Assembly (NCBI RefSeq): GCF_030384885.1
Contig: NZ_CP128615.1
DNA: 64,000 nt
From: Escherichia coli
Lineage (GTDB): Bacteria > Pseudomonadota > Gammaproteobacteria > Enterobacterales > Enterobacteriaceae
Strand: one strand, 5' to 3'
Below the pieces are notes generated by a model, which ran no database searches, was not told where the DNA came from, and saw only the letters and a program-made list of their open reading frames with translations. The translations under genes and the position numbers were made by a program. Every line of letters begins with the position of its first letter. The first letter of the stretch is position 1. This document shows positions 38,219 to 55,590 of the stretch, in pieces.

Positions 38219-38325
38219 GGACAGAAACTGTCTACCGGAGCGTGGTCACTCCACATTTAAAGAAACGAGCTTTGGTAAACATACCTGTAATGACTCCATA
38301 AAATGGCGCGTCAAACGACACCTAA

Positions 38326-40401
38326 TCAATTAACCCCAAGCGCCTTAAACACGGCATCGACGGGGTCTGCATAAAAGCTGATCTGGAATTTTGAGAACAA
38401 CTCAGCAGGAACCGTTGGAATATCTGAGGCTGAGGCCATTGGGAGCAAAATACGCTTTGCGCCACTGTCCATAGCTAACTGAAGACTGCCTGCAAGATCT
38501 TGAACAGGATTGACGACACCACCTAAAGTCATCTCACCCAAAACAACCATCTGCTCTTGAATCGGTCGGTTCATCAGAATTGAACAGAACGCAATTAATG
38601 CAGCGAGCGATGACTTTGTACTTGGCCCCGTATTGTGGAGCTCAACAACATGGAGGTGATACTCATGATCAGAAAACTTCGCCGACGCACTGATTCTATT
38701 CAGGTTACCTTTGAAATAATCAAAGCCAACACGCACAGCTTCTTTCGCTGCGGTATTCGAACCAAGGCCAGACACTGAGTGTTTACCAGAACCAGCCATC
38801 ATCTGGGTTTCATAGCGATATAACCCAAGCTGCCCAGTGCTTCCCTGAGTAACCAAGTGCACGACACCAGCGCGAGGTAAGCCCTCAGGAATTAGCTTGC
38901 TGCCACCTTGTTCCGGTACATTGATGAAGAATTCTTCTAATGAATCGTTATCGATGTAGCTAAAGTGCACATCAAAAAATTCCATTCCGCCAAGCTTTTT
39001 CAATTGCTCTTTGACTCTACGTCTAGTTTCCAGCGCATAGGTCAGGCAGGCTCTTACATCATCTTTTGTGTACTGTGCGTCGGGGTGTAGTAGCTTTAAC
39101 AAGCCCGAAACAGTTCTGCGTACAGCAATTACATCACGCTGATTAAGGTTATTACCGAGTTTGAAGAACTTATCGATAGCATCCGCAAAACTTCTTTTGC
39201 GCATTTCACGCATGTATTCAGCAAGATAGTCTGTGATTAATCCGTAACTATTGGTGAAAAACTCAGGACGCATCTTCGGTATTTCCCATCCAGGAATATA
39301 GGAATGGAAACGGTCAAAAAAAGCAGTGTCAATCATGGCTTCAGGAAAAGGTGCCAACAGATGACTGGTCTTCACCAGTGTCTCAACGCTTTGATTGATG
39401 TTACCGACGAATACCATGGAAGCCTTCGCTTCGATTGAATCACGACCACGGGCAAAAGACCCTGACGCCATATAATCTTTCATTATTTGGACGCCGTCTT
39501 TGTCTTTAAAGTTAATACCCGCTACTTCATCAAAGGCGACAACATCCCACATTCCGACCAACCCAACTTGGCGCGAGCTCATGTTATAGAACAAGTTCGC
39601 CACAGTTGTTTGTCCGCCCGAGACAAGCAATGAGTTTGGTGAGCACTCCTTGTAGACATGGCTTTTACCTGTCCCTCTTGGTCCGAGCTCACAAACGTTG
39701 TAGTTGTTTTCAACGAATGGGATCATACGAGTGATAAGATGCCATTTCACCCGATGCTCTAAGTTGGTTGGCTCCATACCCACGGAACGAAGCAACACAT
39801 CCATCCACTGATCGGTACTAAAATGTCTTCTGGTTGAAAACACCTCATCCATGTTCATGGACGGCATTTGTATCGGTTTTAAACTCATAATGGAGAAAGG
39901 TGATGTCTTCTGACCTTCCTCAAAGAAATACTGGACGGTAATAATGCACCAGATGCCGCCAGTTAATAATTTTTCGTTGTCTTGTACTATTTTGGTCGGT
40001 ACAAGGGCATCCTTGATACCCAGGTTCGACAACGCAGCTTCATAGACGTCTTTTTTCTGGTTGAGCTTAACGCTTACTTTGTCGATGATTTTAAACGTGC
40101 CGCGTTCACGGATCAGTGACTTCACTTTCTCCGCTTCATCTGGTCGGACATAGTTCTCAGCCAAGATTTTTTTTACATTATCAAGGCCTTGCATTACAAC
40201 TTCGTCGTCATCGGACGCACAATACATGCCTAGTAAATACTCAAGCACATAGACAGGGACGTTAGCGCCTTCTTTCAATTGCTTTGTCAGATCTTTTCGA
40301 ACGACACGGCCTTTAAAATATTGGTTGAGCAATGCGTCTAAATCGGCGCTTTGCATCTGATTTTTTTCGTCTTTATGATCTTGTGAAAAATCAGTTGTCA
40401 T
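38326..40401 (-). CDS. brxL: BrxL (BREX Lon-like protease/ATPase)
   Basis: 691-aa ORF, last gene of the BREX operon; P-loop GPRGTGKSH and C-terminal Lon-protease-like domain. Confidence 0.85.
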   Translation of the reverse strand: MTTDFSQDHKDEKNQMQSADLDALLNQYFKGRVVRKDLTKQLKEGANVPVYVLEYLLGMYCASDDDEVVMQGLDNVKKILAENYVRPDEAEKVKSLIRERGTFKIIDKVSVKLNQKKDVYEAALSNLGIKDALVPTKIVQDNEKLLTGGIWCIITVQYFFEEGQKTSPFSIMSLKPIQMPSMNMDEVFSTRRHFSTDQWMDVLLRSVGMEPTNLEHRVKWHLITRMIPFVENNYNVCELGPRGTGKSHVYKECSPNSLLVSGGQTTVANLFYNMSSRQVGLVGMWDVVAFDEVAGINFKDKDGVQIMKDYMASGSFARGRDSIEAKASMVFVGNINQSVETLVKTSHLLAPFPEAMIDTAFFDRFHSYIPGWEIPKMRPEFFTNSYGLITDYLAEYMREMRKRSFADAIDKFFKLGNNLNQRDVIAVRRTVSGLLKLLHPDAQYTKDDVRACLTYALETRRRVKEQLKKLGGMEFFDVHFSYIDNDSLEEFFINVPEQGGSKLIPEGLPRAGVVHLVTQGSTGQLGLYRYETQMMAGSGKHSVSGLGSNTAAKEAVRVGFDYFKGNLNRISASAKFSDHEYHLHVVELHNTGPSTKSSLAALIAFCSILMNRPIQEQMVVLGEMTLGGVVNPVQDLAGSLQLAMDSGAKRILLPMASASDIPTVPAELFSKFQISFYADPVDAVFKALGVN

Positions 40402-40417
40402 GTTTCACCTCAGCGCC

Positions 40418-43090
40418 TTAGAAAAAATCATCTTGGAATGCCAAATCAATGGTTACCGCGTATTGGCTATAACGGGTTCTCATTTCCGCATTCTCAAGAA
40501 CTAATGTGTATTGAGCGTTTCTATCGAACTGGGAGCCAATAAGCTTTAACCTAGCTTCGCGAGTACGTTCATCCATCACTTTACTCACGCTATCAAAGTT
40601 AATCGTTTCACGACTGGAGACTTCATTACCTTGTGCATCGACGATATAGACATCCAACAACCGTGCGACGAAACGCTCGCCTACAGGGTCTGTCTGAATA
40701 AATCTGACCTTGTCGATATTGTTTACTAATTTGATGGGCTGAGTGGCTGCTACAACACCTACCGGTTGTTTCTCATGTTTTGCTGCTTGTTCTTTTTGTA
40801 GCTCTCGCACATGTAGTACCGGTACGCAGACTTCCTGTAGCATCGCTCCGCCATGCACAAACTTAGCACCACCAACGAAGTGGAAGCGTTGAGCCGCTTT
40901 TGGAAGCAGGAACTCGGTATCACTTGAGCCATGAGCCGTATCGTTAATTGAGCCTTTCCAACAGGCTTCATCTGAAGGCAAGTTATTACCAACGATATAA
41001 CGTTTCTTGGCTTCTATCGCTCCAGCAGGTTTGGTTTTCAACGAGGTTTTGTCAGCCGCTACAAGTGCTTTTTGTTGGAAGAGGAAGCCATGGTCAGCAG
41101 TGATCACAACTCGGCTGCCGTTTAGACGGTTGATGACCCGCCCAACGAGGTCTTTTAGCTCTTCAATGGCACTACGACAGGCTTCAAACGTTTTCTCTTC
41201 AGTTGCTGCCTTATCACCAATCGCATCAATGGTATCGTGATAGATATAAACGACTTCTACGTCTCGAACCTTGTCACGCCCCTCCTGGTTACTCCAGCTC
41301 ATCAGTTCCTTAGAACTCACTGCCATACCACCTACTTTTTGTAGGATGGCGTTGCGGTTGTCTAGACCCTGTGAAGAAATACCATCCACATAAACAGCCG
41401 TGCCTTGCTCTGGCTGGTAACTGAGCGCCTTATGAGGCAATAATGCCGCCATCCCAAGTTGGGTATAACTCGGCAAAACGCCCAACTGCGTAGACACCTC
41501 AGCCTTAAATCGCTTCTCGTTGTTAATGATAGCGCCAAGCTCATTCGCAATTTCAAAACGCAGGGCATCAGAGATGATCACAAACACTCGTTTTGTCTGT
41601 TTCAGACTCAGTCGTGTGCGAACTTCTTTTTCATAGAAGTCATACTGGTGCGGTACGCCAGAAATCTGCCACTTTTCAAGTAATTTTTCATTGGCCAAGT
41701 GACGATCCCATGCAAGGCCAAGCTCATACAAGTACCAGTTGGTATAAATGCTTTCGACTTCGTCGTCGAGCTGACGCAGTATGTCTGCACCTTTACTCAA
41801 TACAGAGTGCACATGCTCATTGAACAAACGGTAAGCCTGGTCAAAACGATAAATGTCTGTGGTATAGGCGTCGTACATTGCTTTCGCGTTATCAAAGTGG
41901 AACCCATCCACATAGCGATTTCGCAAGTGCATTAACTCTTCAGCGTTGCGGATAGCTTCATAAATTGCGAAGTATTCTTTGCGTGACAATGTCCAGTGGC
42001 TAGAAAGACGTCTTGATAAGACCGTATCAAACTGAACCCGGTCTAGCGCTTTACTGCTATCGAGCAAATCACGAACTAAACCACGGATTATGGCCTGTTC
42101 CACAGCTTCGAACGTTTCGCATTCGATAAGCTCAACCGGATGGTACTGCCCAGCACGAGTCGAAATTTCCAACTGTTGGCTAAGCACCTTAGAGATGCTT
42201 TCGTAGTAAGCGGCGAAAGAGCGGCTGTCGCGCCAGCTCACCATAAACGCCAAGGCTGTCGCCCGGCCTGATGCGCTTTTTAGAACATTGTTAAGCAACC
42301 AATCGCGTTCAACACCTTCAATTTGGCTCCAGAATTCAGTACAGAATAATTTCAACACGAAGTCTGAGAAGGTTGGCTCTTCAACTGTATAGCCAAAACC
42401 CTCACTCAGATATGCCCAGAGTGAGGTCTCAAGATCAAACTTTCCTAGCTGGCTCCATAAAGGTTGACCAAGGCTTTCATCTTCGATATAAGCCGCATAT
42501 TCGCGTAGTAACCCAAGCAGAATGTCCGACAAAGACGCAGAATCAGCTTTTACAACCACTGCCATCATCTTTCTGTCTAACGACAGTTCGTCTTCGTTCT
42601 CAGTCACCCACTTTTTTAAACCGGCTATGCGCTGTTTATTGGCAAAAAAGCTCTGGCGCTTACGAATGTGCGTGCGAAGCGCCATTTTCGGAATACCCAG
42701 CTCATTAAGCAGCATTGAGCTGTGATCAGCAAAAAACTGCTCGCTATACAAACGCACGTCTAGCAACCAATCGCGGTCAGGCTCTGGCTCAGCGCTTGGA
42801 AAATAGATAAGGAATTTAGCTTCACGCTCATCTACTTCAATGCGTTTTTTCACTGCCAATACAGACTCATTGCCCATATTGAGGATGGTCAAATCATTTG
42901 GAAGCACCCGTGCAGTTTTATCCGCCGATTTATCGTCTGTTTCTTTTGCAAGCCCTTCTTTTGCAATAGAGAGGGCGTTAGCTAAATGCTCAAGCTCTTC
43001 AGTAAAGCTTTGCTCTGGGTCGTACCAAAACACAATGCGGCTTTGTTCAAATTTGGCAGCAACGCCTTGTGCCAGTTCACTAATCTGCAT
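40418..43090 (-). CDS. pglZ: PglZ (alkaline-phosphatase-superfamily BREX protein)
   Basis: 890-aa ORF with ITADHGF motif. Confidence 0.85.
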   Translation of the reverse strand: MQISELAQGVAAKFEQSRIVFWYDPEQSFTEELEHLANALSIAKEGLAKETDDKSADKTARVLPNDLTILNMGNESVLAVKKRIEVDEREAKFLIYFPSAEPEPDRDWLLDVRLYSEQFFADHSSMLLNELGIPKMALRTHIRKRQSFFANKQRIAGLKKWVTENEDELSLDRKMMAVVVKADSASLSDILLGLLREYAAYIEDESLGQPLWSQLGKFDLETSLWAYLSEGFGYTVEEPTFSDFVLKLFCTEFWSQIEGVERDWLLNNVLKSASGRATALAFMVSWRDSRSFAAYYESISKVLSQQLEISTRAGQYHPVELIECETFEAVEQAIIRGLVRDLLDSSKALDRVQFDTVLSRRLSSHWTLSRKEYFAIYEAIRNAEELMHLRNRYVDGFHFDNAKAMYDAYTTDIYRFDQAYRLFNEHVHSVLSKGADILRQLDDEVESIYTNWYLYELGLAWDRHLANEKLLEKWQISGVPHQYDFYEKEVRTRLSLKQTKRVFVIISDALRFEIANELGAIINNEKRFKAEVSTQLGVLPSYTQLGMAALLPHKALSYQPEQGTAVYVDGISSQGLDNRNAILQKVGGMAVSSKELMSWSNQEGRDKVRDVEVVYIYHDTIDAIGDKAATEEKTFEACRSAIEELKDLVGRVINRLNGSRVVITADHGFLFQQKALVAADKTSLKTKPAGAIEAKKRYIVGNNLPSDEACWKGSINDTAHGSSDTEFLLPKAAQRFHFVGGAKFVHGGAMLQEVCVPVLHVRELQKEQAAKHEKQPVGVVAATQPIKLVNNIDKVRFIQTDPVGERFVARLLDVYIVDAQGNEVSSRETINFDSVSKVMDERTREARLKLIGSQFDRNAQYTLVLENAEMRTRYSQYAVTIDLAFQDDFF

Positions 43091-46000
43091 TAGTTAACCT
43101 CCGGGGCCGAACCGGTAATGGCCTTAACATCAGCCAACAGATCACCAAACTTGCCGTAATTCACTTTCACGCCATCATCCAAATCCAGTGAAATACGCAT
43201 ATCAGCGTAGTGTTTTAGCTTGTCATCAAACTCGCGTAGTTCAACCTGTTTCTTGATTAAGGCATCCAACTCTTTCTTGAAGCGGTTCGCTTCACTGGTC
43301 GAGTCTGCCGTTTCAATCTGCTTCTCAAGCTGCTCTGCATAAGCATCGTATTTGCCGAGTAACGGGGTGACATACTCGGTACGCATACGCGAAAGCGTGC
43401 CCTCGTTGTAACGGTGCAGGTAAACCAGGCACTCAAAAGCCTTCTGTTTGCCTGAGCTAAACAACCAATAAATAGGACGTTTTTTGTATGTCTTCAGGTG
43501 GTCTTTGTAGAATTGAGTCGATAAATAGCGGCGGATCGTCTCAAGAGCTGATTCTGATTTTTTGGGCTTTATGGCATTTAAGCACAGAGACTCTGCAACA
43601 AAATCGAGATTTTCTTGTAAGTGTTCTTCACCCCAAACAACTTGGACAAACTCGCGGAAACGATTGGTTGCGTCGTCCTTGAACCATTCTTGGTCGGTTA
43701 GGGGAATGATGCCATTTTCGTCGGCAGCAAAAGATTGATAAGCACCTTCGGCAACGAGTTTATCAAACCCATAATTACAAGCATGAGCGTAGACTAAGCC
43801 TTCACGATCAAGAGAGTAACGCCCCATCATGCAACCAATGGAGTAACTAATGAGTTCACAGGTTGTATCAGATTTTAACTTACTTAAATCAGTAGAATTT
43901 TCATATCGAAAAGCAGGGTTAGCAAATAATGATAGTGTTGAAATATCTATTGAAACCGGCACCGAAATTCCAAAATCATTGCATATTAAAGAATTAACTT
44001 CACTTTCCAAATTGGCTTGTTCATTAACTAGATTTAACTTCACTTCATTTAGAACCTGATAAGATTCAGCAATTTTGGCACGTTTTATTTTACACAGAGG
44101 CGAACATTCAAAGTTCCATGACGTTTCGTACATATCCCAATCAACCTTTGCGTTGGAAATTAAATCGCTCACCTTTTCAAACAATGCTTCTTTGTCAGCC
44201 TTATTGAAAATTGCCGGCAATGAGGCTATTTGACTCGTTTCATAGTTAAGCGTTGGCGAAATGATTTTTAACTGTTCCAGCACTACAGATGAGTTTAACT
44301 GAGCCAATAAGGCATATTCTTCAATTCGAGAATTAAGAAATACTGATGCACCTGCAACGTCAAATATCGCTCCTTCAGGCTGCCATCTGAACGATGGAAT
44401 TCCACTCGAAATTTTTGACCAAGTTACTGAGCTACGAAAATAAAATGCACCATTTTTCACAGTTCTAGTAGGAGACCCATACAAACTTTTAGCGTATGCA
44501 AATACCTCTTCACCTGCATTTTCCCAATTAATTACGTATTCCTGATTGCCATACCATTTTCTATATGAACCGCCTTTATTATATGGAAACCATTTGAATC
44601 CTGAGGATTCAGCTTCATCTTTAGAACTAGAGTCATACATTGAGGTGTTTACTGGAACTTCATGCCATAGCCTTAAGAATCTATTATTATCACTTGTTTG
44701 ACACCCAACTCTAGTTTTAGCAACTGACGATATTGGCGCGTCCATAAATGTATTTAATATTTCCTTGGCAACCCAATAAGCAATCGGACTCCCAGGAATC
44801 TTTTTGAAATCATCCTGAGCTGTCGCTGCAAATTCATTCTCTCTATTGAGCAATGCTTTTTGCTTTTCTTCTTCATTGCCATCTATCAGCCTATAAAAGG
44901 TAGGTTGATAATGATTGATGTGCTTATTTTGAATAATCCAGGCAGTAGTCTGTACAACCTCGCCACTAATCTGACTAAAAGCGCGTGCACCGAGGTGAGC
45001 CATAGTAATAAATGTATGGTCTTCCAATAAATTGTTTCTTAGTTGCTCATAACTCGACAAGAACATCCACGATTGCATATTGATTTGAGCATTAAATCCA
45101 TATTGAGAAAGCAATTTAAATGCTCGCTCCATAAAAATGGCAAACAAGTCTGATTTACTATTTGGGTATTGTTTCTTAGCAAACTCTTTCAAATCTGCAT
45201 TCATTCCTTTTGCTCCCATATAGGGAGGATTAGCAATCACAGCATCGTAACGAATAGATAAAACCAAAGCCTGGTGAACAAACTCAATCAATTGCTTCGC
45301 TGCCAGCTTCTGCATTGAGTCGCCTGACTCTTGTAGCTCTACTAGCGTGCTCAGGAGCTCTTTTAGCTGTTCATGGTCATCGCTTGGTACATCAATCAAT
45401 GAACCAAAGGTCTTGGCTTGAGTAAATCTTGCCAACGTTCGCTTCAGCAGTTGGTAGCGGTTGTCTGCATTGAACGAGCTTAAATCTTGCTCTTCGTCAG
45501 AGAACAGTCCTTGTGATGTGCCGCTTTGCCAACTTCCCGATAGGTTGAGTGCTTTCCATAAGGTCGGCAGATCAATATGGTTACTTTCCTGCAATGACAG
45601 TACATTGAGTCGCACGTTACGGGTAAAAATACGCTTGTCGTCATCTCTCGCCATCATCATCAGGGCAAAGCCAGATAGCTGTGCTGCACGATCATCTATG
45701 TCCAAGCCGAAGAGGTTGTTCTCCAGGATCATCTTTGGAATGTCACGAGAGCGGAAACCACGTTCTTCGTAGATGGCTTTTAGTACGTTGTAAGCTTCAA
45801 TCAGTATGTGGCCCGAGCCACAAGCGGGATCGAGTACTTTGATGGTTTCAGGTTCAATCGATTCTGGCGTAATAGCCTTTAGCTGTTGGTTAACTTCGTC
45901 AGATTGCTGCGCAGGCTCAATGTAGTATTCCATCTGGCTTTTAATGGCAGAGTCTGGGTAGGTTTGCAGCCATTGACGACCGACTGAGTTTTGTACCAGG

Positions 46001-46758: not shown

Positions 46759-46773
46759 ATGATCTTGCGCCTC

Positions 46774-48537
46774 TTATTCTGTCTCTACGCTGTTTGCGGG
46801 TTGTAATGCGGTTCTAATGCGGGCAAGCAGTGTTTCCTGACGCTCGCGGTAAAAGTCCATAAACTGGTTTAGTTGTTCAGGTAATGATGTTATGGCTTGC
46901 GATTGCAGATGTGCTTGTCTTGCATTCACATCAGGCCACTGCTGCGCATACCATTCATGGGGCATTTTTTGCCGCTTCTGGTTGTTGATTGTCCCTTCCA
47001 ACAGTTGAAGGTTTGGCAGCTTGTTAGATGCCTCGATGAGTTCATCTAGCTGTTCAGCTGGGACACCAACTTTTGCAAGCTTGTTACGCGTAAACAAACC
47101 TTTGGGGTAAATGTGGTCCACATGAAAGTGTCGTGAAAAATCGAATCCTGGGAACAACAAAGTCAACAAGGCAAAGGTACGCGGATTACCATAATCCAAC
47201 TGCGCTAGTTCACTAATTTCCTCTGGGTCAAAGCGCAACGATTTACCACGCTGTTGCATGGTCGCTTCAATTTTCGCTAGCGGGAAACCCGTATCACCCG
47301 ATTGTTTAATGTCTGAGCGAAGCATAGTAAGCAGGGTATCCAAACCACTTCCCCAGATGCCTGACGCTTTCAACAACGACCTAATGAGCCAGTTTCTGAT
47401 GCATTCTCTATCGACCGCATATTCAACCCTAGAAAGGTAGCTTGCCGTTAACTTTCGGTGGTGCAGGTAATAGGCTAACGGGAGGATGGCACTTGTTGCT
47501 CTGAGGTTTTGTGCATTAAAACCAAAACTTGCCAGCAACTGCATTGAGAGCAATAACGCATCACGAATTGGCGTCCAGTTCTTTTCGAGAATCGCCATAT
47601 TTTCCTTGTTAAAGTTCTCAACCTTAAAGCCCACGCTACCGATGTCAGAGAGCATTAAGCCTGCTTTTAAAACGAGATCTTTTGATACGTTGAATCCATC
47701 ACCAACACGGTTCATCTCATCCACTAAGGCATGAATTTCTTCACGGGCATCTAACGAGCTCCACTGCGCTACGGCTATTGAAAGTAGTAAGTCTGAGTAG
47801 GACAAAGTAGTGCCGCCGCTATTCATGCGGATAAAGATATTCAGAACACGTTCAAGGCTCTGATCACTTTCTTCGTAAAACGAAATCTTATCTTTGTCAT
47901 GGATAGTTCGATACAAGTGACGAAGAGTTGAGCGAGCCTCTTTGCGTTGCTCCGAGCTCAACCTAGCATCATCAGCAACTTCATCGATAAGTGCATCTTC
48001 TTCCTCTTCCATGATCCGGCCTACACGGAACCAGTATTGTTCAGATGCATCCAAAGAGGCTTTATCGTCGGTTAGGAACTCAAAGTCATACATCGACCCA
48101 GTTTCTAAGTCGGGCTGGCTTAACAGATTTAAGTGAAGCCTGCGCACTGGGAAGGCGTCATCATTGCTCCACCATTTACCTGTCAGCTTCCACGCAAATG
48201 AGCCGCGTAGGCCGATGTTCAAAGCGGTAATCCGCTGCTGTCCATCTAGGACGGCAATGAACTCACGCTCTGGTAACTGAGTGACATTTTCACAATGGTA
48301 GTTATCTCGCTCATGGTAATGCTGCATGAACTGATAAAACTGATAGCTATGCCGGTTCTCTGGTTTTATCTTCCAGAATAGAAAGGTCCCAAACGGGTAA
48401 CCTTGCAACAGGCTATCAAATAGACGACAGATCTGTTCTGGTCGCCATACAAACTCTCGCTGGATGGCCGGTAACAGGTATTCCTGCTCAGCAACCTTGT
48501 CGAGTAATGATCTTATTGTTCCACCCGCTTGATACAT
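46774..48537 (-). CDS. GmrSD-like DUF262/DUF1524 protein (BrxU-like type IV restriction enzyme candidate) embedded in BREX
   Basis: N-terminal DUF262 DGQQR motif (IAVLDGQQRITALN); C-terminal His-Me-finger-like HVDHIYPKG. Confidence 0.7.
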   Translation of the reverse strand: MYQAGGTIRSLLDKVAEQEYLLPAIQREFVWRPEQICRLFDSLLQGYPFGTFLFWKIKPENRHSYQFYQFMQHYHERDNYHCENVTQLPEREFIAVLDGQQRITALNIGLRGSFAWKLTGKWWSNDDAFPVRRLHLNLLSQPDLETGSMYDFEFLTDDKASLDASEQYWFRVGRIMEEEEDALIDEVADDARLSSEQRKEARSTLRHLYRTIHDKDKISFYEESDQSLERVLNIFIRMNSGGTTLSYSDLLLSIAVAQWSSLDAREEIHALVDEMNRVGDGFNVSKDLVLKAGLMLSDIGSVGFKVENFNKENMAILEKNWTPIRDALLLSMQLLASFGFNAQNLRATSAILPLAYYLHHRKLTASYLSRVEYAVDRECIRNWLIRSLLKASGIWGSGLDTLLTMLRSDIKQSGDTGFPLAKIEATMQQRGKSLRFDPEEISELAQLDYGNPRTFALLTLLFPGFDFSRHFHVDHIYPKGLFTRNKLAKVGVPAEQLDELIEASNKLPNLQLLEGTINNQKRQKMPHEWYAQQWPDVNARQAHLQSQAITSLPEQLNQFMDFYRERQETLLARIRTALQPANSVETE

Positions 48538-48553
48538 AGTTATCCGTTGCCTC

Positions 48554-51500
48554 TTACTTAATTCTTACTCGGTCGCCAGCTTTGACCGCAGCAATCAGCT
48601 GCTCTCTTAAAGCGGCAAGATAGGCATCAACTTCGGCTTCACTTTCAATGAATCCGGTTGTTACTGACTTAGCCATGGCATCGGTTGAGTTAATCGTTAC
48701 GGTACGTTTTGCAACCGGCTGTGGCTGCACTGGTTCAGAGGCTGGCTCAGGTGCTGGAGCTGCTTTACCGGCTTTCGCTGCTTCCTCTTCGCGTGTCTGC
48801 TGTTCGAGTTCACGACGTCTTTGCTCAGCTTCAGCTTTTTTGCGTTGATCTTCGATAAAGCCATTCAGCAACTCATAGGCTTCGTCCTCGTAACCTTCCG
48901 CTTCAGTTTGCTCACTGATAATTTGTGGTATTGAAGAGGTCGCTTCAATACGCTGTCTGCACATTTGTAACGGGCGCAGTGCTTGGTTCTGTAATTCAGA
49001 CGGTGCATGAGCTTCAGCTAGCGCTTCTTTTACACGTCCGATGCGCAGATCAACACGCTCTAAGGCATGAGTGCGTTTTTCTTCAACCAATGTTGAGTTA
49101 ATTTTTGCCACCTGCTCGATAAGCGGATTAATGTGGCGCAGCTGCTCATACGGCGAGGGCATATTGTAAATGCGTTCTAATTCAGTGAGCGCTTTTAATG
49201 CTTCACTGTCTTTTTCTAACGCAGGTCTATTGGCCTTAAACTTCTCGTTCAATGCGCCAGCAAGGGCTTGCCAAGTTTGAAATTGGCTATTGTAGAAGTC
49301 ATCAAGATCCTCAAAGTCCTCAGCAAACTCTTCAAGGGCATCAGCGTTTTCTAAGAATCGGGTGATAAGAGCGAAGCTTGAAGTTTGCTCAAGAATACCC
49401 GCGACCAATGCAAGACCATCGTCAATTTGAGATTTACCTGGGAAATGGCCTGTCTGTGACTTGGTTCTGAATGATTTAAGCTCTTCATTCCAAGCCAGTA
49501 ATTCATCGCGCACTAATTCGTAGAGCTCCTTTTCACCAGAGCCGGTAAAGGTTTTTGAAAAGATCTCTTTAACAAGACCAGCAGCCTTTTTGATTTGGCG
49601 CTCGTCATGTTGCCTGATTTTATGTACACGGATCTCACCGCGTTTACGCACGCTGGTAAACGGCTCGTAAGCTTTTTTCAACGCCAGATCTGTGCCCTGG
49701 GTACTAAAAGATAACTTTCCAGCCAAGCCCAGCCTTGCAGTGAGCAATAAGATTTCATTGTCTGGCCAGCCATACGGGCGCTTGCCGAAGTGGGCAACGA
49801 TGTCACGTAAGTAAACAGGCTCATTACGCTCGACTTTTAGCGTTACGTACTGCTCAACCTCACGCGTAGCTTCTGGGTTACATTCATCCGCTTGAAGATC
49901 CAGTCCAATCTGAGCAATATCATCAGCAACAAGTACGGCCTGTAGCTCACGCAAAACTTCACCAGGCGTCGCCTTGAGCATGTTCAATTTAGCGAAGGTG
50001 TTTTCGATAACGTATTTGTATGCTTCTTCGACGATGGCACTTGGCGTTGCTGATTTCTTCGGTAGTTTTGTGCCGATAGCGTAAACGTCAGCCTCTGCAA
50101 ACAAAGCTTCAAAATCCGTTCTTAAGCGTTTTTCACGCTCAATATTTTCCATCTGCTTTTCGCGGAGAAGGTGTTCTTGCTCTGGTCGCTGTCCTGAATT
50201 TTGTTTTAAGAATCGGTCAGTTTTTATAAAGGTTGTCAGGTCATCCCAAAGACGTTTATGTTCGCCCAGCTTGACGAGCACGCACCCATCAGCCTCAAGC
50301 GTATGATTGATGCAGGCTTGATCGTGGGAGTAATTTTCAAAGTGCGAATCCAAAGGTGAAATGACTTTAATGACTAGATCTTCCAGCGTGGTGCCATCTT
50401 TTGGATGACCATTGCAAAAACGGCTCACCGCAAAGTCTTGCTTATTAATCGGGTATCGATAGGCACGATTACCTTTCAAAATACCGTCAAATACGATTGC
50501 TGAAAGCTTGTTAGAGACCTCTGACATTTCAACGTCAGTGTGGCGGATCTCGTTTTCAATCTCTTTTTCTTCGTTGGTCAGGAAGATAAATTCATCACCA
50601 TTACGCGCAATCAGCAATTGGCGTTCAAGACGATTCAAGCTCTCTTCAATTTGTTTACGCAGCGCAATTTTATCTGCATCGATTCGATCAATTGACAGCG
50701 TCACAAGGTTGTCTAGTGTGCTTTTGACAACGTCCACATAACGGATCAAGAAAAGAGTTTTTAGAATCTTGCCATCGAATTCTGTTAAGGAATCCAACTC
50801 ACAGGCTTGGTCAATCGTTCGCTTAACCGCTGGCTCCAAAAAGCTTTCAATCGGTGCATAGAAACTGTAAAACGGGATTAACACATCAAGGCCAGAGTCC
50901 TTCATCTGTTTTGCAGCTGATTGGAAAGCATCAAGTAATGAACGCTCACCCATGGCTAAGTGCTTACCCGTCGCGCCTTTTGTTCGAATTGACTCAAACA
51001 CTTTTTGAACCAGCGTGTAGTGGTAAGGCACAAACGGATAGTTGTCCACGAAAGACGGAGCGTCGGTGTAGCCCTTTAGAGACGCAGTTGTCGTTTTATC
51101 AAATGTCAGCTGGTTACGAAGAATGTCGCCCTTTTCAGCAAACACATCGATGAGGTGTGTACGAGCTTCTTCCGTTTTGGACAACAAACGCTTTTGAATA
51201 ACTTCCGAGGTATTCGAGCTCGACAGCTGCAAGCGGGTACTAAAACGCCCTTGAATTTTAGAGAAGTCCTCGCCATCGCGCTTATCCATACCACCAATGG
51301 CAGCATCAATGTCTGCCTGAGAGGTAACAACGACCCAAGCTCTGCCACCACAATATGTGCCAAGATCTTCAGTAATGGTCTGAAGCTTCAACATCATTTG
51401 TGTGTTCTTACCGATAAACTGACCGACTTCATCGACTAAGAAAAGAAGGTTACGATCTCCAGTTCGATCTAAGTATTCATTAACCCACTTACAGAAGTTT

Positions 51501-52231
51501 CGGATATCTAGCGGGAAATTGTTTTCAACCTGTTCAACCCACGCTTTGGCAGACTCTAATGATTGCTCACTGGCATGAGCGAGTGCTTCTGAAAGTTCGT
51601 CTCGATAGAAGTCATAGGCGTCACGCTCCTTTTCCCAAGTTGATTGAGTCAACTCAGCAAATTTGTCCTTGAAAGACATGTATTGATTACGCTTATCAAG
51701 CTCGCGTTCTAAATGCGCAATGTGAGGAAAATCAGCGCAGTATCCTACACGCTCATTAAAGACTTTGAGGAAGACCTTAAGAATGGCATTTTCTCGGTCA
51801 TCCGTATTGGCTCGTGAATCGATGTTAAAAAGAATAACATCAGTGTCTTTGGTAACAGCGTTTTGGATATCGGCCAACAGCATGGCATCGTTGATTTTGT
51901 CTTTAAAAAACTCAAATGCTTGACGGCCTTGGCCATCCTTTTCGACAGACTTATTTTCGAGGAGGTAAGACAAAATTTTCAGGAAGTGAGACTTACCCGA
52001 ACCAAAGAAGCCAGAGATCCACACACCAATTTTTCCTGACATTGATGCGCCACTTTGCGTCACAGATGGAACGTAAGCCTCAAAGAAAGCGCGAAAATGT
52101 CGATCTAGCTCTCGGGTTACAACATACTCATCAAGTTCGACATACACACTGTCATTGTCTTTCTGTTCCGCTTTAACAACGCCGTTAATATCACGCGTCA
52201 ACTTCTTGGAAAAAATCTGTTCAATTTTCAT
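48554..52231 (-). CDS. brxC: BrxC (large BREX P-loop ATPase)
   Basis: 1225-aa ORF with Walker A GFFGSGKSHFLK. Confidence 0.85.
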   Translation of the reverse strand: MKIEQIFSKKLTRDINGVVKAEQKDNDSVYVELDEYVVTRELDRHFRAFFEAYVPSVTQSGASMSGKIGVWISGFFGSGKSHFLKILSYLLENKSVEKDGQGRQAFEFFKDKINDAMLLADIQNAVTKDTDVILFNIDSRANTDDRENAILKVFLKVFNERVGYCADFPHIAHLERELDKRNQYMSFKDKFAELTQSTWEKERDAYDFYRDELSEALAHASEQSLESAKAWVEQVENNFPLDIRNFCKWVNEYLDRTGDRNLLFLVDEVGQFIGKNTQMMLKLQTITEDLGTYCGGRAWVVVTSQADIDAAIGGMDKRDGEDFSKIQGRFSTRLQLSSSNTSEVIQKRLLSKTEEARTHLIDVFAEKGDILRNQLTFDKTTTASLKGYTDAPSFVDNYPFVPYHYTLVQKVFESIRTKGATGKHLAMGERSLLDAFQSAAKQMKDSGLDVLIPFYSFYAPIESFLEPAVKRTIDQACELDSLTEFDGKILKTLFLIRYVDVVKSTLDNLVTLSIDRIDADKIALRKQIEESLNRLERQLLIARNGDEFIFLTNEEKEIENEIRHTDVEMSEVSNKLSAIVFDGILKGNRAYRYPINKQDFAVSRFCNGHPKDGTTLEDLVIKVISPLDSHFENYSHDQACINHTLEADGCVLVKLGEHKRLWDDLTTFIKTDRFLKQNSGQRPEQEHLLREKQMENIEREKRLRTDFEALFAEADVYAIGTKLPKKSATPSAIVEEAYKYVIENTFAKLNMLKATPGEVLRELQAVLVADDIAQIGLDLQADECNPEATREVEQYVTLKVERNEPVYLRDIVAHFGKRPYGWPDNEILLLTARLGLAGKLSFSTQGTDLALKKAYEPFTSVRKRGEIRVHKIRQHDERQIKKAAGLVKEIFSKTFTGSGEKELYELVRDELLAWNEELKSFRTKSQTGHFPGKSQIDDGLALVAGILEQTSSFALITRFLENADALEEFAEDFEDLDDFYNSQFQTWQALAGALNEKFKANRPALEKDSEALKALTELERIYNMPSPYEQLRHINPLIEQVAKINSTLVEEKRTHALERVDLRIGRVKEALAEAHAPSELQNQALRPLQMCRQRIEATSSIPQIISEQTEAEGYEDEAYELLNGFIEDQRKKAEAEQRRRELEQQTREEEAAKAGKAAPAPEPASEPVQPQPVAKRTVTINSTDAMAKSVTTGFIESEAEVDAYLAALREQLIAAVKAGDRVRIK

Positions 52232-52249
52232 TCGGGAGGCTCCCTGCTC

Positions 52250-52843
52250 TTAATTTTTTTTACCGTCTTCAGGCACAAGCTTGAAGGCGCGATAGTAGTT
52301 TTTAGATTCGATCATGCCGAAAGGATGCAAATCCCTTCCGCTATATTCACCCGGATAGAAAAGCACTAATGGCGTGCTACCCATAACGTCTTGCAGAGCA
52401 CTAAGTAACTCATGTCCTCGGATAAGAGGCCACGCACTGCCTAAGCCTGACAGCAACACAAACTCAAGTTCTGATGGCTTATATTTGTCCGCGATATACC
52501 TTGCCACTTTCTCTTGGCTCAGAGGCCCGGCTAGTGTTTTTCGAAGGCCATCAACACCGACTTGCAATTCACGCTGGCAAGCTCGGTCGAAAAGGCCTCG
52601 CTCCTCAAGCATATCTATCAAGACTTCAAAAATATTGAGATGGACAAAGCGGTAACCACGCTTGTTGAGTTTTTCGTCAACGTGCTTAATGTGCTCTCGT
52701 ACAAGCAGTTCATACTTGGCTGGATAGTCAAATACCCAAAATCCAATTTCATTGCCCAAGCCATCGTTTTTCAAAAACTTAGGGCTTTCAATTCGTTCCA
52801 GTATCAGATCAAGCCTGGTCTGAAGAGCCTTCATATTGTGCAC
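52250..52843 (-). CDS. brxB: BrxB (DUF1788)
   Basis: 197-aa ORF between brxA and brxC; assignment by size and synteny. Confidence 0.7.
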   Translation of the reverse strand: MHNMKALQTRLDLILERIESPKFLKNDGLGNEIGFWVFDYPAKYELLVREHIKHVDEKLNKRGYRFVHLNIFEVLIDMLEERGLFDRACQRELQVGVDGLRKTLAGPLSQEKVARYIADKYKPSELEFVLLSGLGSAWPLIRGHELLSALQDVMGSTPLVLFYPGEYSGRDLHPFGMIESKNYYRAFKLVPEDGKKN

Positions 52844-53430
52844 TCCATTACCTCAATCAAATCTTCCCGGCCCAGACGAACTAACCAGTCTTTAACTTCT
52901 GGCATTAGGTAAACAGGTTGTATTTTCTTTGTCCTGCTATCACTCAGGTAGCCACTATCAACCAGTGCCTTAATTGCGTTGTTACCCATTTTTTTGACAG
53001 TTGAGTCAGAAAAACCGCCAAGCTCAGCATATGCCCGCACTCTCGTGTCATAAAACTCAGACCATGCATCAGCGGTTAAAGAGGGTTTATAGGTGCGACG
53101 AGCTTCGGCTAAGGTAAGTCGCATAAAATAAGCGACAACCGGAGAATGAATGAGTAATGACATCATCAGCATTTGGACATAGGCACGTTCACTCGCGGCT
53201 AAAAGATCAGTCATAAACTCATCACCCAGGCCTTCAATACGCCAACGGATTGTTCTGGCATAACGAATAGCCGTCTGACCGGATTTTTTCTGAAGAACAT
53301 TTTGCTCAACGATCAGCGACTTCCACTCATCTTCTGGAAGTTTTTTCAATAGCGATTCTGCGATTATTCTAGATTCAGTTATCAATAAACTGCCTCCGAT
53401 AAGATCGCCTAAATATTCTTTTATATTCAT
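52831..53430 (-). CDS. brxA: BrxA (DUF1819)
   Basis: 199-aa ORF, first structural BREX gene; 13-bp overlap with brxB. Confidence 0.7.
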   Translation of the reverse strand: MNIKEYLGDLIGGSLLITESRIIAESLLKKLPEDEWKSLIVEQNVLQKKSGQTAIRYARTIRWRIEGLGDEFMTDLLAASERAYVQMLMMSLLIHSPVVAYFMRLTLAEARRTYKPSLTADAWSEFYDTRVRAYAELGGFSDSTVKKMGNNAIKALVDSGYLSDSRTKKIQPVYLMPEVKDWLVRLGREDLIEVMECTI

Positions 53431-53439
53431 AAATTCATC

Positions 53440-54366
53440 TCACGATTCGCTATATCCAGGAGCGAGTGCAGCATTGTCAACGCCGTATAGTGCTTCTGGA
53501 TTTTTAAGTGCTAAATGGAACTCTCGCCCATTGCTCTTACAATTCTTTGAACAATCGATATTCCATAAACGCAGTAAATATCCAGCGAACGCAGCTCTTA
53601 TCTCTACACGCAACCTATTGTTTTCCATTGCGTAGTCCATCGATACAGCTTCTGGATGTGCTAGTTTTGGATGAGGTATCAGCTCTAGCTCAACGATTCG
53701 GTTCCATTGCTTATCCCACTGAAGAGTCTCAACTTCGTCGTTAACCTCATCCTCTAACAACTCAACTTCACTTATTCTGGTTAAAACAAAATCCCTAAAT
53801 TCTCTAAGCTTTCTATCGAATGCTCGGACATGCCATCTCAAGCCATTGTCAATCAGGGTATGAGGAACTATTTGCCTGCTCCCATGACCACTCGACAATG
53901 AGGTGTACTCAATATTAATCACAGCGCGCTTATGTATGGCTTCACTAATAGCCGCTACAACTTCCAATTTCGGCTTATTGAGATGGAATGGTGCTTCACA
54001 AGCCATAGGTGGCCTGGCCTTGCCAAGAAAGCCATCACCGAACCCTTGGCTTATCGTCGCAAGAGTTCGAACAACGTCATAATCAAACAACGGCTGGAAT
54101 GCGCTCGTCTTCAAGTGCACTCTGCGCTTTTCGTCATACATAACGTTGTTAGGAGCCAACTCTTTGTACCGCGCAAAATCTTGTGTTGCCACAGACGGCG
54201 CTACGCTAAATCGCTCGGTTAAATAACTACGCCCAGCTTCACCTTTAAATAACAAAGTGAAATCAATATGAGCGAGTCGTTCTCTCTGTGCTTGGCTAAG
54301 CTCTTCAAGTCCAGTGTTGTCTTGCACTGTCAGCCTCTCAATCCATCTGGGACAAGCCCTAATCAT
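53440..54366 (-). CDS. brxR: BrxR-like regulator (wHTH-WYL type)
   Basis: 308-aa ORF immediately upstream of brxA, same strand; assignment by position and size. Confidence 0.6.
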   Translation of the reverse strand: MIRACPRWIERLTVQDNTGLEELSQAQRERLAHIDFTLLFKGEAGRSYLTERFSVAPSVATQDFARYKELAPNNVMYDEKRRVHLKTSAFQPLFDYDVVRTLATISQGFGDGFLGKARPPMACEAPFHLNKPKLEVVAAISEAIHKRAVINIEYTSLSSGHGSRQIVPHTLIDNGLRWHVRAFDRKLREFRDFVLTRISEVELLEDEVNDEVETLQWDKQWNRIVELELIPHPKLAHPEAVSMDYAMENNRLRVEIRAAFAGYLLRLWNIDCSKNCKSNGREFHLALKNPEALYGVDNAALAPGYSES

Positions 54367-54685
54367 TTAAAACTAGGAAGCCATCGATTGAATGCCATCA
54401 AGCAACCTACTTTTTTTCATTAGGTATCATAGTATCAACAAGTCGTCTTGTTGGCTATAAAAATTGGCTTGACGTTGTTCGAATGTTTCTTTTCTGGCCT
54501 TGATAGAAGCTCACGCTGGAATGCCAACTGACGCAATTCATTCTCTCGAACACGCCTAGCAACTTCTGCCTGGGCTGGTAGCTGATCTTGACCCTCCATC
54601 TCCGAACAGCTTTTGTATCTTAAGTTAACGATGTCCGCTGCCGCCGGTATTCCCTCGGGGAGTGATATCCCAGCGCGCTGTGCGG

Positions 54686-54961
54686 GTGGCTTCCATTTCC
54701 ATCAGATGTCCTTCCTGCTCCGCTACTGAAGGCGTGGTGCGTAACGGCAAAAGCACTGCCGGACATCAGCGCTATCTCTGCTCTCACTGCCGTAAAACAT
54801 GGCAACTACAGTTCACTTACACCGCCTCTCAGCCCGGTACGCACCAGAAAATCATTGATATGGCCATGAATGGCGTTGGATGCCGGGCAACCGCCCGCAT
54901 TATGGGCGTTGGCCTCAACACGATTTTACGTCACTTAAAAAACTCAGACCGCAGTCGGTAA
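54686..54961 (+). CDS. insA: IS1 InsA (GTG start)
   Basis: [43 protein letters not shown]... Confidence 0.8.
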
Positions 54962-55383
54962 CCTCACGCATACAACCGGGCAGTGACGTCATTGTTTGCG
55001 CGGAAATGGACGAACAGTGGGGTTATGTCGGCGCTAAATCACGCCAGCGCTGGTTGTTTTACGCGTATGACAGGATACGGAGGACGGTTGTGGCGCACGT
55101 ATTCGGTGAACGCACGTTGTCCACGCTGGAGCGTCTTCTGGGCCTGCTGTCGGCCTTTGAGGTCGTGGTATGGATGACGGATGGCTGGCCGCTTTATGAA
55201 TCACGCCTGAAGGGAGAACTGCACGTTATCAGCAAGCGATATAAGCAGCGCATTGAGCGGCATAACCTGAATCTGAGGCAGCATCTGTCAAGGCTGGGCA
55301 GGAAGTCACTGTCGTTCTCAAAATCGGTGGCGCTGCATGACAAAGTCATCGGGCATTATCTGAACATAAAACACTATCAGTAA
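54880..55383 (+). CDS. insB: IS1 InsB (expressed as InsAB' by frameshift)
   Basis: Overlaps insA in the -1 frame; 167-aa ORF. Confidence 0.8.
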
Positions 55384-55590
55384 GTTGGAGTCATTACCTT
55401 CTTTGCCGCCGGACATTGTCCGGCGCAACACCAAACCGGTCTGGCGGGCTGAGCCAATCCCGCAGGCAAATTCAGCCCTTACCGGATGGCTCAGCCCCCT
55501 ACTCATTGGAATTGGATATTCAACTTTCAGGGGCTACTGCGCCAGACTTCAGTCTTTAAAGTGATTGACTTAGCGCCTGGCACACTCAAT

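What the first reader, a model, noticed from the sequence alone, without database searches (positions are those of the whole stretch)
38326..54366. Complete plasmid-borne type 1 BREX locus with BrxR regulator and an embedded GmrSD-like gene between brxC and pglX
Seen: eight co-oriented minus-strand genes with short gaps or overlaps: a regulator-sized ORF, DUF1819-like, DUF1788-like, a 1225-aa P-loop ATPase (GFFGSGKSH), a 587-aa DUF262/DUF1524 protein (DGQQR; HVDHIYPKG), a 1222-aa methyltransferase (LDPACGSG; NPPY), an 890-aa ITADHGF protein and a 691-aa Lon-like protein. Established: brxA-brxB-brxC-pglX-pglZ-brxL is the type 1 BREX gene set; WYL-type BrxR regulators and a GmrSD-like type IV enzyme (BrxU) embedded in a plasmid BREX island have been described. 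Inference: here the GmrSD-like gene sits between brxC and pglX; I cannot say from memory whether that exact position matches the described case. The arrangement would give complementary restriction of modified and unmodified phage DNA.
Basis: partly seen in the sequence, partly recalled or inferred. Interest (0 to 1): 0.7.

Follow-up and report, generated by a model that had tools for sequence, protein, structure and literature searches.

The report
Known BREX plus BrxU plasmid island
This is an intact copy of the already characterised pEFER-type phage-defence island, a type 1 BREX system with the type IV restriction enzyme BrxU between brxC and pglX, and it differs from the studied copy mainly in carrying a different DNA-recognition module in its methyltransferase.

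Summary

The 587-aa protein is 584/587 identical to BrxU of E. fergusonii plasmid pEFER (PDB 7P9K). Picton et al. 2021 state that brxU lies between brxC and pglX, which is the same position. Seven of the eight proteins are 96.8-99.7% identical to pEFER's. The same 16-kb DNA is 100% identical in two RefSeq E. coli plasmids that are already annotated as BREX.

Three things differ from pEFER:
- PglX residues ~501-1000, which carry the recognition loop and the target-recognition domain, are replaced. Identity there is 24-56% and GC is 36% against 46% for the rest of the gene. The methylated and targeted motif is therefore probably not pEFER's GCTAAT. My weak prediction is ..AAG, perhaps GT(A/T)AAG.
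- This PglX allele is rare among E. coli records but matches the one in a Providencia rettgeri entry that I take to be ICE R391.
- pEFER's upstream brxS is absent and brxT is truncated by IS elements.

Ten related islands carry ten different recognition domains on a near-identical backbone.

Interest is low.

The parts
53440..54366 (-). brxR, the WYL-domain transcriptional repressor of the island. The probable true start is the GTG at 54327, giving 295 aa.
   Evidence: PADLOC WYL 7e-18. Pfam WYL 4e-12. PDB 7QFZ (pEFER BrxR) 1e-193 over residues 14-308. 96.8% identical to pEFER BrxR.
54402..54428 (-). R-BOX1-like BrxR operator just downstream of the PbrxR promoter: GATACCTAATG-AAAAA-AAGTAGGTTGC. 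It has 3 substitutions relative to pEFER, and IR2 is kept at 10 of 11 positions.
   Evidence: Alignment with pEFER 12820-12846. Operator defined in PMC9122601.
53610..53636 (-). R-BOX2, the second BrxR box, lying inside the 3' end of brxR upstream of brxA.
   Evidence: Exact match to pEFER 13612-13638. Defined in PMC9122601.
54435..54582 (-). 3' remnant of the 105-aa ORF found upstream of brxR in pEFER, which I take to be brxT. The 5' part is missing and brxS is absent. Homology with pEFER ends at 54582.
   Evidence: blastn breakpoint at pEFER 12666 = window 54582. The intact 318-nt ORF is present in pEFER, pECO-6dfa and pHS08-175-1.
52831..53430 (-). brxA (DUF1819).
   Evidence: PADLOC BrxA 5e-108. 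PDB 7ZGE (pEFER BrxA) 8e-125. 97% identical to pEFER.
52250..52843 (-). brxB (DUF1788). RefSeq start is 52834.
   Evidence: PADLOC BrxB 6e-71. 97% identical to pEFER.
48554..52231 (-). brxC, the P-loop ATPase, with Walker A motif GFFGSGKSH at residue 74.
   Evidence: PADLOC BrxC E = 0, 1536 bits. 98.7% identical to pEFER. Motif located.
46774..48537 (-). [quoted passage not shown] It has the DUF262 NTPase motifs RLFDS and DGQQR and the DUF1524 HNH motif DHIYP.
   Evidence: 584/587 identical to PDB 7P9K. Pfam GmrSD_N 8e-34, GmrSD_C 0.013. PADLOC HEC-05 6e-234. Motifs located.
43090..46758 (-). pglX, the N6-adenine methyltransferase and specificity subunit, with motif I LDPACGSG and motif IV NPPY.
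   Evidence: PADLOC PglX E = 0. PDB 8C45 and 9EWZ E = 0. 73.7% identical overall to pEFER PglX.
43859..45208 (-). Replaced specificity cassette inside pglX (aa ~518-967 by nucleotide breakpoints). It includes the MTase recognition loop and the TRD, and its GC is 36.4% against 45.7% for the rest of pglX.
   Evidence: No nucleotide homology to pEFER across this stretch. Amino-acid identity of 24-56%. GC values. Found in 2 of 72,556 plasmids and 4 of 5,426 E. coli genomes.
40418..43090 (-). pglZ, the alkaline-phosphatase-fold protein, with the ITADHGF motif at residue 663.
   Evidence: PADLOC PglZ E = 0. PDB 9NV3 3e-293. 98.3% identical to pEFER.
38326..40401 (-). brxL, the Lon-like ATPase.
   Evidence: PADLOC BrxL E = 0. 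PDB 8EMC E = 0. 99.7% identical to pEFER.
54686..55398 (+). IS1 copy that bounds the island on the brxR side. A short IS3-family transposase C-terminal remnant lies at 54583-54685.
   Evidence: blastn to pEFER IS1. Annotation of identical plasmids. Translation.
36847..37923 (+). IS110-family transposase inserted into an IS3-family remnant. It bounds the island on the brxL side; island homology ends at 38032.
   Evidence: Annotation of NZ_CP024857.1 and NZ_CP123330.1. blastn breakpoints.

Best explanation
The locus is an intact member of the pEFER-type two-arm phage-defence island carried on plasmids of Enterobacterales and probably on SXT/R391 conjugative elements.

[quoted passage not shown] PglX, acting in a BrxBCXZ complex, methylates the fifth base (an adenine) of a 6-bp non-palindromic motif on host DNA. 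The same complex recognises unmethylated copies of that motif on incoming phage DNA and blocks its replication.

Arm 2 is BrxU. This dimeric, NTP-dependent GmrSD-family HNH nuclease cuts DNA containing 5mC, 5hmC or glucosyl-5hmC. It therefore catches phages whose modified DNA escapes BREX.

BrxR represses the operon from the R-BOX operators.

Shown here:
- Gene content, order and integrity.
- Near-identity to the experimentally characterised pEFER proteins.
- Replacement of the PglX specificity module.

Inferred from pEFER experiments:
- The two activities, their independence and their complementarity.

Inferred from sequence rules, and weak:
- This PglX recognises a motif other than GCTAAT. 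It probably ends in ..AAG and is possibly GT(A/T)AAG.
For: Gene content:
- All eight ORFs are intact and match the BREX, BrxU and WYL profiles.
- BrxU is 99.5% identical to PDB 7P9K, and RLFDS, DGQQR and DHIYP are all intact.
- BrxR, BrxA, BrxB, BrxC, PglZ and BrxL are 96.8-99.7% identical to pEFER's proteins.

Published function of the pEFER island:
- brxU lies between brxC and pglX.
- PglX-dependent GCTAAT N6mA methylation.
- BREX and BrxU each restrict a separate set of phages.
- BrxU alone is sufficient for defence, and it cuts 5mC, 5hmC and glc-5hmC DNA in an NTP-dependent way (PMC8565348).

Regulation:
- BrxR repression through the R-BOXes is published (PMC9122601).
- R-BOX2 is exact here, and R-BOX1 matches at 24 of 27 positions.

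Conservation of the arrangement:
- The 16-kb DNA is 100% identical in NZ_CP024857.1 and NZ_CP080127.1.
- 57 plasmids cover at least 80% of it.
- In eight further islands the 587-aa gene sits in the same slot.

Specificity change:
- PglX aa ~501-1000 are 24-56% identical to pEFER.
- The +1 recognition loop matches the long loop of E. coli HS BrxX (GGTAAG) and Salmonella PglX (GATCAG), not pEFER's short loop (loop role described).
- A802/N838 and V684/Q687 correspond to the published covariation rules for A at position -1 and T at position -3.
Against: - No functional data exist for this allele; the methylation motif is only predicted. Only 1 of the 23 rule-based PglX designs in PMC11341690 worked.
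- pEFER's upstream brxS is absent and brxT is truncated. PMC9122601 refers in passing to these as accessory genes needed for host methylation.
- R-BOX1 is less symmetric than in pEFER.
- The Pfam match to GmrSD_C is weak, E = 0.013.
- The generic promoter and terminator scan gave nothing above chance.
Confidence: 0.93

Rival explanations
1. The genes are intact, but the BREX arm is silent or methylation-deficient in this copy. The cause would be IS insertions that removed brxS and the 5' part of brxT, together with an altered BrxR operator. Only BrxU would then be active.
For: Homology to pEFER stops at window 54582, inside the brxT-like ORF, with an IS3 remnant and IS1 beyond it. [quoted passage not shown] R-BOX1 has 3 substitutions.
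Against: About 150 bp upstream of R-BOX1, including the predicted -10 element, is conserved. All eight ORFs are intact and identical in plasmids from unrelated sources: AR_0011, chicken isolates and a human stool isolate. PMC8565348 itself says the function of brxS and brxT is unclear. No promoter activity was detected upstream of brxS, and a single IR2 is enough for BrxR repression.
Confidence: 0.06
2. The 1222-aa protein is a stand-alone type IIG (MmeI-like) restriction-modification enzyme rather than a BREX PglX.
For: The best PADLOC model by score is REase_MTase_IIG, at 1781 bits against 1589 bits for PglX. [quoted passage not shown]
Against: Outside the swapped cassette the protein is 96-100% identical to pEFER PglX. 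It aligns end to end with the solved PglX and BrxX structures 8C45 and 9EWZ, which have an N-terminal helical bundle and no nuclease domain. It sits between brxC/brxU and pglZ. The EcoSal review notes that these proteins were formerly listed as type IIG in REBASE.
Confidence: 0.01

Closest known systems
[quoted passage not shown] 2021, PMC8565348; BrxR: Picton et al. 2022, PMC9122601)
   Same: The gene order is the same: brxR-brxA-brxB-brxC-brxU-pglX-pglZ-brxL. BrxU is 99.5% identical and the other proteins, apart from PglX, are 96.8-99.7% identical. R-BOX2 is identical and nucleotide identity is about 97% over 15.2 kb. pEFER and the identical-island plasmid NZ_CP024857.1 are both typed IncR.
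   Different: The PglX specificity cassette (window 43859-45208) is unrelated at the nucleotide level, and its TRD is 38% identical at the protein level. The +1 loop is the long form rather than pEFER's short form. brxS is absent and brxT is truncated. R-BOX1 has 3 substitutions.
BREX islands in hotspot 5 of SXT/R391 conjugative elements (ICE R391; ICE VchBan9, gene set drawn as R-A-C-U-X-Z-L)
   Same: A Providencia rettgeri protein, AAM07997.1, is 1039/1052 identical to this PglX, including the whole TRD, and a Morganella morganii protein is 1210/1222 identical. I take AAM07997.1 to be from ICE R391, because its accession falls among the R391 ORF accessions quoted in PMC7251087. R391 and ICEPmiIre01 are reported to carry this BREX cluster (PMC7251087). 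BREX-Ban9 includes BrxU (PMC11580459).
   Different: Those copies are chromosomally integrated in conjugative elements, whereas this one lies in an IS-bounded segment of a plasmid. I did not align the R391 island DNA, and PMC7251087 cites a different accession (AAM08017.1) for R391's PglX.
Salmonella Typhimurium D23580 BREX with embedded PARIS, and E. coli HS BREX
   Same: Both are type 1 BREX systems. Salmonella D23580 also carries a foreign defence system (PARIS) within the BREX island. The PglX recognition loop for the last motif base is almost identical to the one here.
   Different: The embedded cargo in Salmonella is PARIS (ariAB) rather than BrxU, and E. coli HS has none. Their motifs (GATCAG, GGTAAG) are known, and their TRDs are different from this one.
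GmrSD (E. coli CT596) and other GmrSD-like enzymes (SspE, HEC-06)
   Same: They share the DUF262 NTPase plus DUF1524 HNH architecture and the DGQQR motif.
   Different: BrxU is only about 13% identical to GmrSD. It has the RLFDS motif that HEC-06, EcoCT GmrSD and SspE lack. It also cuts 5mC DNA as well as glucosylated DNA.

Membership tests
Type 1 BREX | [quoted passage not shown] | tested here: met
   PADLOC profile matches for all six, in canonical order on the minus strand.
Type 1 BREX | PglX with gamma-class N6-adenine methyltransferase motifs (GxG motif I, NPPY motif IV) and no nuclease domain | tested here: met
   LDPACGSG at residue 309 and NPPY at 510. Full-length alignment to PglX and BrxX structures 8C45 and 9EWZ.
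Type 1 BREX | PglX-dependent N6mA at the fifth base of a 6-bp non-palindromic motif, and exclusion of unmethylated phage | not testable with these tools
   This requires a methylome and plaque assays. Only a sequence-based prediction (..AAG) could be made.
[quoted passage not shown] | N-terminal DUF262 (GmrSD_N) domain with the nucleotide-binding and hydrolysis motifs RLFDS and DGQQR | tested here: met
   Pfam PF03235 8e-34. Motifs at residues 38 and 98.
[quoted passage not shown] | C-terminal DUF1524 HNH nuclease domain (DHIYP) | tested here: met
   The Pfam PF07510 match is only E = 0.013. However, HVDHIYPKG is present at residue 472, and the protein is 584/587 identical to the crystal structure 7P9K, which shows this domain.
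[quoted passage not shown] | NTP-dependent cleavage of DNA containing modified cytosines | not testable with these tools
   Shown for the 99.5% identical pEFER protein (PMC8565348). None of the three substitutions here (residues 63, 141, 581) lies in a catalytic motif.
BrxR family (WYL regulators of defence islands) | HTH-WYL dimeric repressor encoded at the head of the island, with cognate inverted-repeat operator | tested here: met
   7QFZ 1e-193. Pfam WYL. R-BOX2 exact and R-BOX1 matching at 24 of 27 positions.
pEFER-type BREX/BrxU island | brxU inserted between brxC and pglX | tested here: met
   Gaps of 16 and 15 nt to the flanking genes. The published description is identical. The same slot is used in eight other islands.
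pEFER-type BREX/BrxU island | Upstream accessory genes brxS and brxT | tested here: not met
   Homology ends inside the brxT-like ORF, and an IS3 remnant and IS1 replace the rest.
pEFER-type BREX/BrxU island | PglX specificity for GCTAAT | tested here: inconclusive
   The TRD is 38% identical, and the +1 loop is the long form of the G-reading enzymes rather than pEFER's short T-type loop. The motif itself was not measured.

The most novel reading that the evidence does not exclude
The island is a conserved chassis on which the PglX specificity module is swapped as a cassette. Ten sampled islands share a 96-100% identical PglX N-terminal part (aa 1-500, 89-90% for the Moellerella copy) and C-terminal part, and a 99.3-99.8% identical BrxU. 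Yet they carry ten different TRDs, only 31-47% identical to each other, and the loop-bearing segment (aa 501-660) assorts independently of the TRD. The copy in this window carries the allele also found in a Providencia rettgeri (probably ICE R391) entry, and would methylate and target a motif that has not been determined and is not GCTAAT. In more distant BREX loci the same MTase/TRD hinge is where pglX is split into two ORFs, with other defence genes lying between the halves. On this reading, that hinge is a general exchange and insertion point.
Probability: 0.6. Interest if true: 0.4.

Novelty: already known. Interest (0 to 1): 0.15.

Why it matters
BREX with embedded BrxU has been published, solved structurally and annotated by NCBI's pipeline. 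BrxU homologues account for about 16% of the BREX loci in which a known defence system lies between pglZ and pglX (PMC11341690).

The modest value is practical. This multidrug-resistance plasmid, which carries tet(A), would protect its host against both unmodified and cytosine-modified coliphages, which is relevant to phage therapy and phage-host range prediction. Its PglX allele has an unmeasured motif that could be read directly from existing long-read data.

The allele series on a constant backbone is a ready-made natural data set for learning the PglX recognition code.

Tried and rejected
- **Promoter and terminator scan of 37900-54720.** It found fewer promoter-like sites than in shuffled sequence, and terminator-like sites at chance level. 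It says nothing about operon structure.
- **Composite transposon idea.** The IS3-family remnants at the two ends of the island share no nucleotide similarity, so there is no evidence that matching IS copies flank it.
- **Matching the TRD to a PglX of known motif.** Supplementary Fig. 15 of PMC11341690 is too garbled in the machine-read text. One row resembles the window only in a short stretch.
- **TRD search in the 5.8-billion-protein set.** It listed only ~590-aa proteins and not the identical full-length protein, which is in the collection. The list is therefore biased, and 'closest relative 80%' understates what exists. The exact look-up found 99% identical alleles in Providencia and Morganella.
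- **P0004 (Oceanimonas).** No gene record was held for it.
- **Literature search for split PglX.** It found nothing, which is not proof that it is undescribed.
- **Type IIG reading of PglX.** Rejected; see the rival explanations.
Full report
**Observation**

Intergenic distances run from -13 to +18 nt. All quoted peptide motifs are present at BrxC 74, BrxU 98 and 472, PglX 309 and 510, and PglZ 663.

PADLOC profiles assign the eight products, in order, to WYL, BrxA, BrxB, BrxC, HEC-05 (a GmrSD-like family), PglX, PglZ and BrxL. E-values run from 7e-18 down to 0.

**Identity**

The 587-aa protein is 584/587 identical to the crystallised BrxU of Escherichia fergusonii plasmid pEFER, PDB 7P9K. 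The three substitutions, at residues 63, 141 and 581, lie outside the RLFDS, DGQQR and DHIYP motifs. Pfam gives GmrSD_N at 8e-34 but GmrSD_C only at 0.013. For DUF1524 it is passed through the motif and the near-identical structure, not through the profile.

Other matches to solved structures:
- BrxR matches pEFER BrxR (7QFZ) at 1e-193 over residues 14-308, which suggests the true start is the GTG at 54327.
- BrxA matches pEFER BrxA (7ZGE) at 8e-125.
- PglZ and BrxL match solved BREX proteins.

I fetched pEFER (NC_011743.1) and compared the proteins pairwise:

| Protein | Identity to pEFER |
|---|---|
| BrxR | 96.8% |
| BrxA | 97.0% |
| BrxB | 97.0% |
| BrxC | 98.7% |
| BrxU | 99.5% |
| PglZ | 98.3% |
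| BrxL | 99.7% |
| PglX | 73.7% |

**Comparison with the literature**

Picton et al. [quoted passage not shown] They also show the following (PMC8565348):
- PglX-dependent GCTAAT N6mA methylation.
- Separate sets of phages restricted by BREX and by BrxU.
- BrxU alone is sufficient for defence.
- BrxU degrades 5mC, 5hmC and glucosyl-5hmC DNA in an NTP-dependent manner.

Picton et al. 2022 show that BrxR represses PbrxR and PbrxA through R-BOX1 and R-BOX2 (PMC9122601). Payne et al. found the same protein independently as HEC-05. Went et al. report BrxU homologues in about 16% of the BREX loci where a known defence system lies between pglZ and pglX.

**Public copies**

The 16-kb DNA is 100% identical in E. 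coli plasmids NZ_CP024857.1 (AR_0011, IncR) and NZ_CP080127.1. In all, 93 plasmid records match, and 57 of them cover at least 80%. RefSeq already annotates the genes as BREX components plus a 'DUF262 domain-containing protein'.

brxU at 95% nucleotide identity or more occurs in 51 of 5,426 complete E. coli genomes. Of the 52 places, 37 are on plasmids and 15 on chromosomes.

The window's right flank is 100% identical to NZ_CP123330.1. The left part of the window is a different mosaic.

**What differs from pEFER**

*1. The PglX specificity cassette.*

Nucleotide homology with pEFER runs over window 54582-45209 and 43858-38032 and is absent in between. In the protein, residues ~501-1000 fall to 24-56% identity, while the flanks are 96-100% identical. 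The cassette has 36.4% GC, against 45.7% for the rest of pglX.

It covers two elements known to determine specificity. One is the methyltransferase-domain loop that reads the last motif base. The other is the target-recognition domain, which reads the first four bases (Drobiazko et al.; Went et al.).

The cassette is found at 99.9% identity or more in only 2 of 72,556 PLSDB plasmids and 4 of 5,426 E. coli genomes. An exact look-up nevertheless shows the protein on 145 contigs. It also finds 99% identical proteins in Morganella morganii and in Providencia rettgeri entry AAM07997.1. I take that entry to be from ICE R391, whose hotspot 5 is reported to carry this BREX cluster (PMC7251087).

*2. 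The upstream accessory genes.*

Homology ends inside the 105-aa ORF that precedes brxR in pEFER and in other copies, and which I take to be brxT. Upstream of that point the window has an IS3-family remnant and IS1. About 150 bp upstream of R-BOX1, including the predicted -10 element, is retained.

*3. The BrxR operators.*

R-BOX1 has three substitutions, and R-BOX2 is exact.

**Allele series**

I fetched eight further islands chosen for differing pglX length. They come from IncY, IncR, IncFIB, IncC and IncHI2 plasmids of E. coli, Klebsiella, Raoultella, Enterobacter and Moellerella. All have a 587-aa DUF262 gene in the same slot.

Across the ten islands:
- BrxU is 99.3-99.8% identical to the window's.
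- PglX 1-500 is 97-100% identical, or 89-90% for the Moellerella copy.
- PglX 1001-end is 95-99% identical.
- The ten TRDs (aa 661-1000) are only 31-47% identical to each other.
- The segment 501-660 forms its own groups that do not follow the TRD. For example, pEFER and pPK5074-69kb are 100% identical in 501-660 but 39% identical in the TRD.

The sample was biased towards different alleles. One allele, with a 3630-nt pglX, accounts for about 44 of the 69 plasmid records that match pglX. That the TRD is the most variable part of PglX is already noted in the literature. The clean cassette pattern on a near-clonal island is my own observation.

**Motif prediction (inference, weak)**

I aligned the ten alleles with the TRD regions of Salmonella PglX and E. 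coli HS BrxX, recovered from PDB alignments.

| Motif position (1-6) | Residues here (Salmonella numbering) | Basis | Predicted base |
|---|---|---|---|
| 6 (+1 relative to the modified A) | Loop LGARAFSQISGEVVQ, same length as in the two G-reading enzymes and one residue different | pEFER has the short loop associated with T | G |
| 5 | - | Modified adenine | A |
| 4 (-1) | A802 / N838 | The only experimentally validated rule; equivalent to N823 contacting A4 in E. coli BrxX | A |
| 3 (-2) | K782 / V801 | Half a rule for A | A or T |
| 2 (-3) | V684 / Q687 | Proposed rule for T | T |
| 1 (-4) | T766 / K768 | Lysine where the G-readers have arginine | G, tentative |

The best guess is GT(A/T)AAG. 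The only reasonably firm part is ..AAG, which differs from GCTAAT. Only 1 of the 23 rule-based designs worked in the source paper.

**Mechanism**

*Shown here:* an intact gene set, and near-identity to proteins with demonstrated activities.

*Inferred from pEFER and other type 1 BREX work:*
- A BrxBCXZ complex methylates host motifs and uses the same PglX recognition to detect unmethylated phage DNA.
- BrxL is needed for restriction only, where this has been tested.
- BrxU independently degrades cytosine-modified DNA.
- BrxR keeps expression low.

That complementarity is the published conclusion for pEFER.

**Rival explanations**

A silent BREX arm, caused by loss of brxS and brxT, is possible but unlikely. 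The ORFs are intact and identical across unrelated hosts, the promoter region is retained, and the 2021 paper calls the function of those genes unclear.

The type IIG reading suggested by the top PADLOC score is rejected on architecture and context.

**Verdict**

The system is already known: published, structurally characterised and annotated. The only new element is an uncharacterised PglX specificity allele, also present in Providencia and Morganella entries. Interest is 0.15.

**Seen in passing**

- A Gabija-like gajA-gajB pair lies 3.7 kb beyond brxL.
- Following the TRD's relatives turned up BREX loci in which pglX is split at the MTase/TRD hinge into ORFs of ~605-657 aa and ~586-596 aa. 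Unrelated defence genes lie between the halves: SIR2 plus a DUF87 ATPase in one, a reverse transcriptase in another, and a Shedu-like nuclease plus an AAA ATPase in a third. I found no description of this in the papers searched.

Noticed in passing
L014 4586-11776; L015; L016 2222-10791; L017 3478-10761 (related loci, not in the window): In more distant type 1 BREX loci, pglX is split at the methyltransferase/TRD hinge into an N-half (605-657 aa) and a TRD+CTD half (586-596 aa), with other defence-type genes between the halves. L014 has SIR2_2 plus a DUF87/HerA-like ATPase, with 4-nt ATGA overlaps at every junction, and also a BrxU-like gene after brxC. L016 has a 998-aa reverse transcriptase with two small ORFs. 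L017 (Oligella urethralis CP137240.1) has an SduA_C nuclease plus an AAA_15/21 ATPase. The L014 C-half is 75% identical to window PglX 643-1220. I found no description of this in the papers searched.
   Followed up: partly
window 32003-34572: A Gabija-like pair: a 520-aa GajA-type ATPase (PADLOC 1.5e-101) and a 340-aa short GajB-type UvrD helicase (1.7e-47) that overlap by 16 nt, about 3.7 kb beyond brxL. This is a second defence system on the same plasmid segment.
   Followed up: partly
window 29973-31031 (-): A 352-aa ORF. Matching plasmids list a DUF4238 domain-containing protein among the features in this stretch, but I did not confirm that the label belongs to this ORF. It has no PADLOC or NCBIfam hit. 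It lies next to the Gabija-like pair, so it may be another defence candidate.
   Followed up: no
window 43859-45208 and loci L002, L004-L011: Ten related BREX/BrxU islands carry ten different PglX TRDs, 31-47% identical to each other, on a 96-100% identical backbone (89-90% in PglX 1-500 for the Moellerella copy). The segment aa 501-660 recombines independently of the TRD. The window's cassette has 36% GC against 46% for the rest of pglX.
   Followed up: yes
window 54435-55398: The ORF that precedes brxR in pEFER and other copies, probably brxT, is truncated here. An IS3-family transposase C-terminal remnant (...[20 protein letters not shown]) and an IS1 copy replace the rest, and brxS is absent.
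   Followed up: yes
window 36847-38218: An IS110-family element is inserted into an IS3-family element directly beyond brxL. pEFER has a 100% identical 531-bp stretch of the same IS110-family sequence at the corresponding end of its island.
   Followed up: partly
window 13932-15510: Two ORFs of 200 and 187 aa lie in a 30% GC stretch and have no NCBIfam or PADLOC match. Next to them is a 357-aa protein with a LuxR-type HTH and an EAL domain at 16185-17258.
   Followed up: no
window 20474-21526 (-), 23112-24233 (+), ~58000-64000: General plasmid context: a 350-aa fragment of the F-type TraC ATPase (residues ~445-771 of the family model), which suggests a decayed transfer region; an N-terminally short UmuC; and a tet(A)-tetR(A)-TnAs1 resistance module at the high-GC right end.
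   Followed up: no
(tool behaviour): The word-indexed protein search with the TRD listed only ~590-aa proteins. It omitted the identical 1222-aa protein, which is in the collection. 'Closest relative' statements from that search alone would be misleading.
   Followed up: yes
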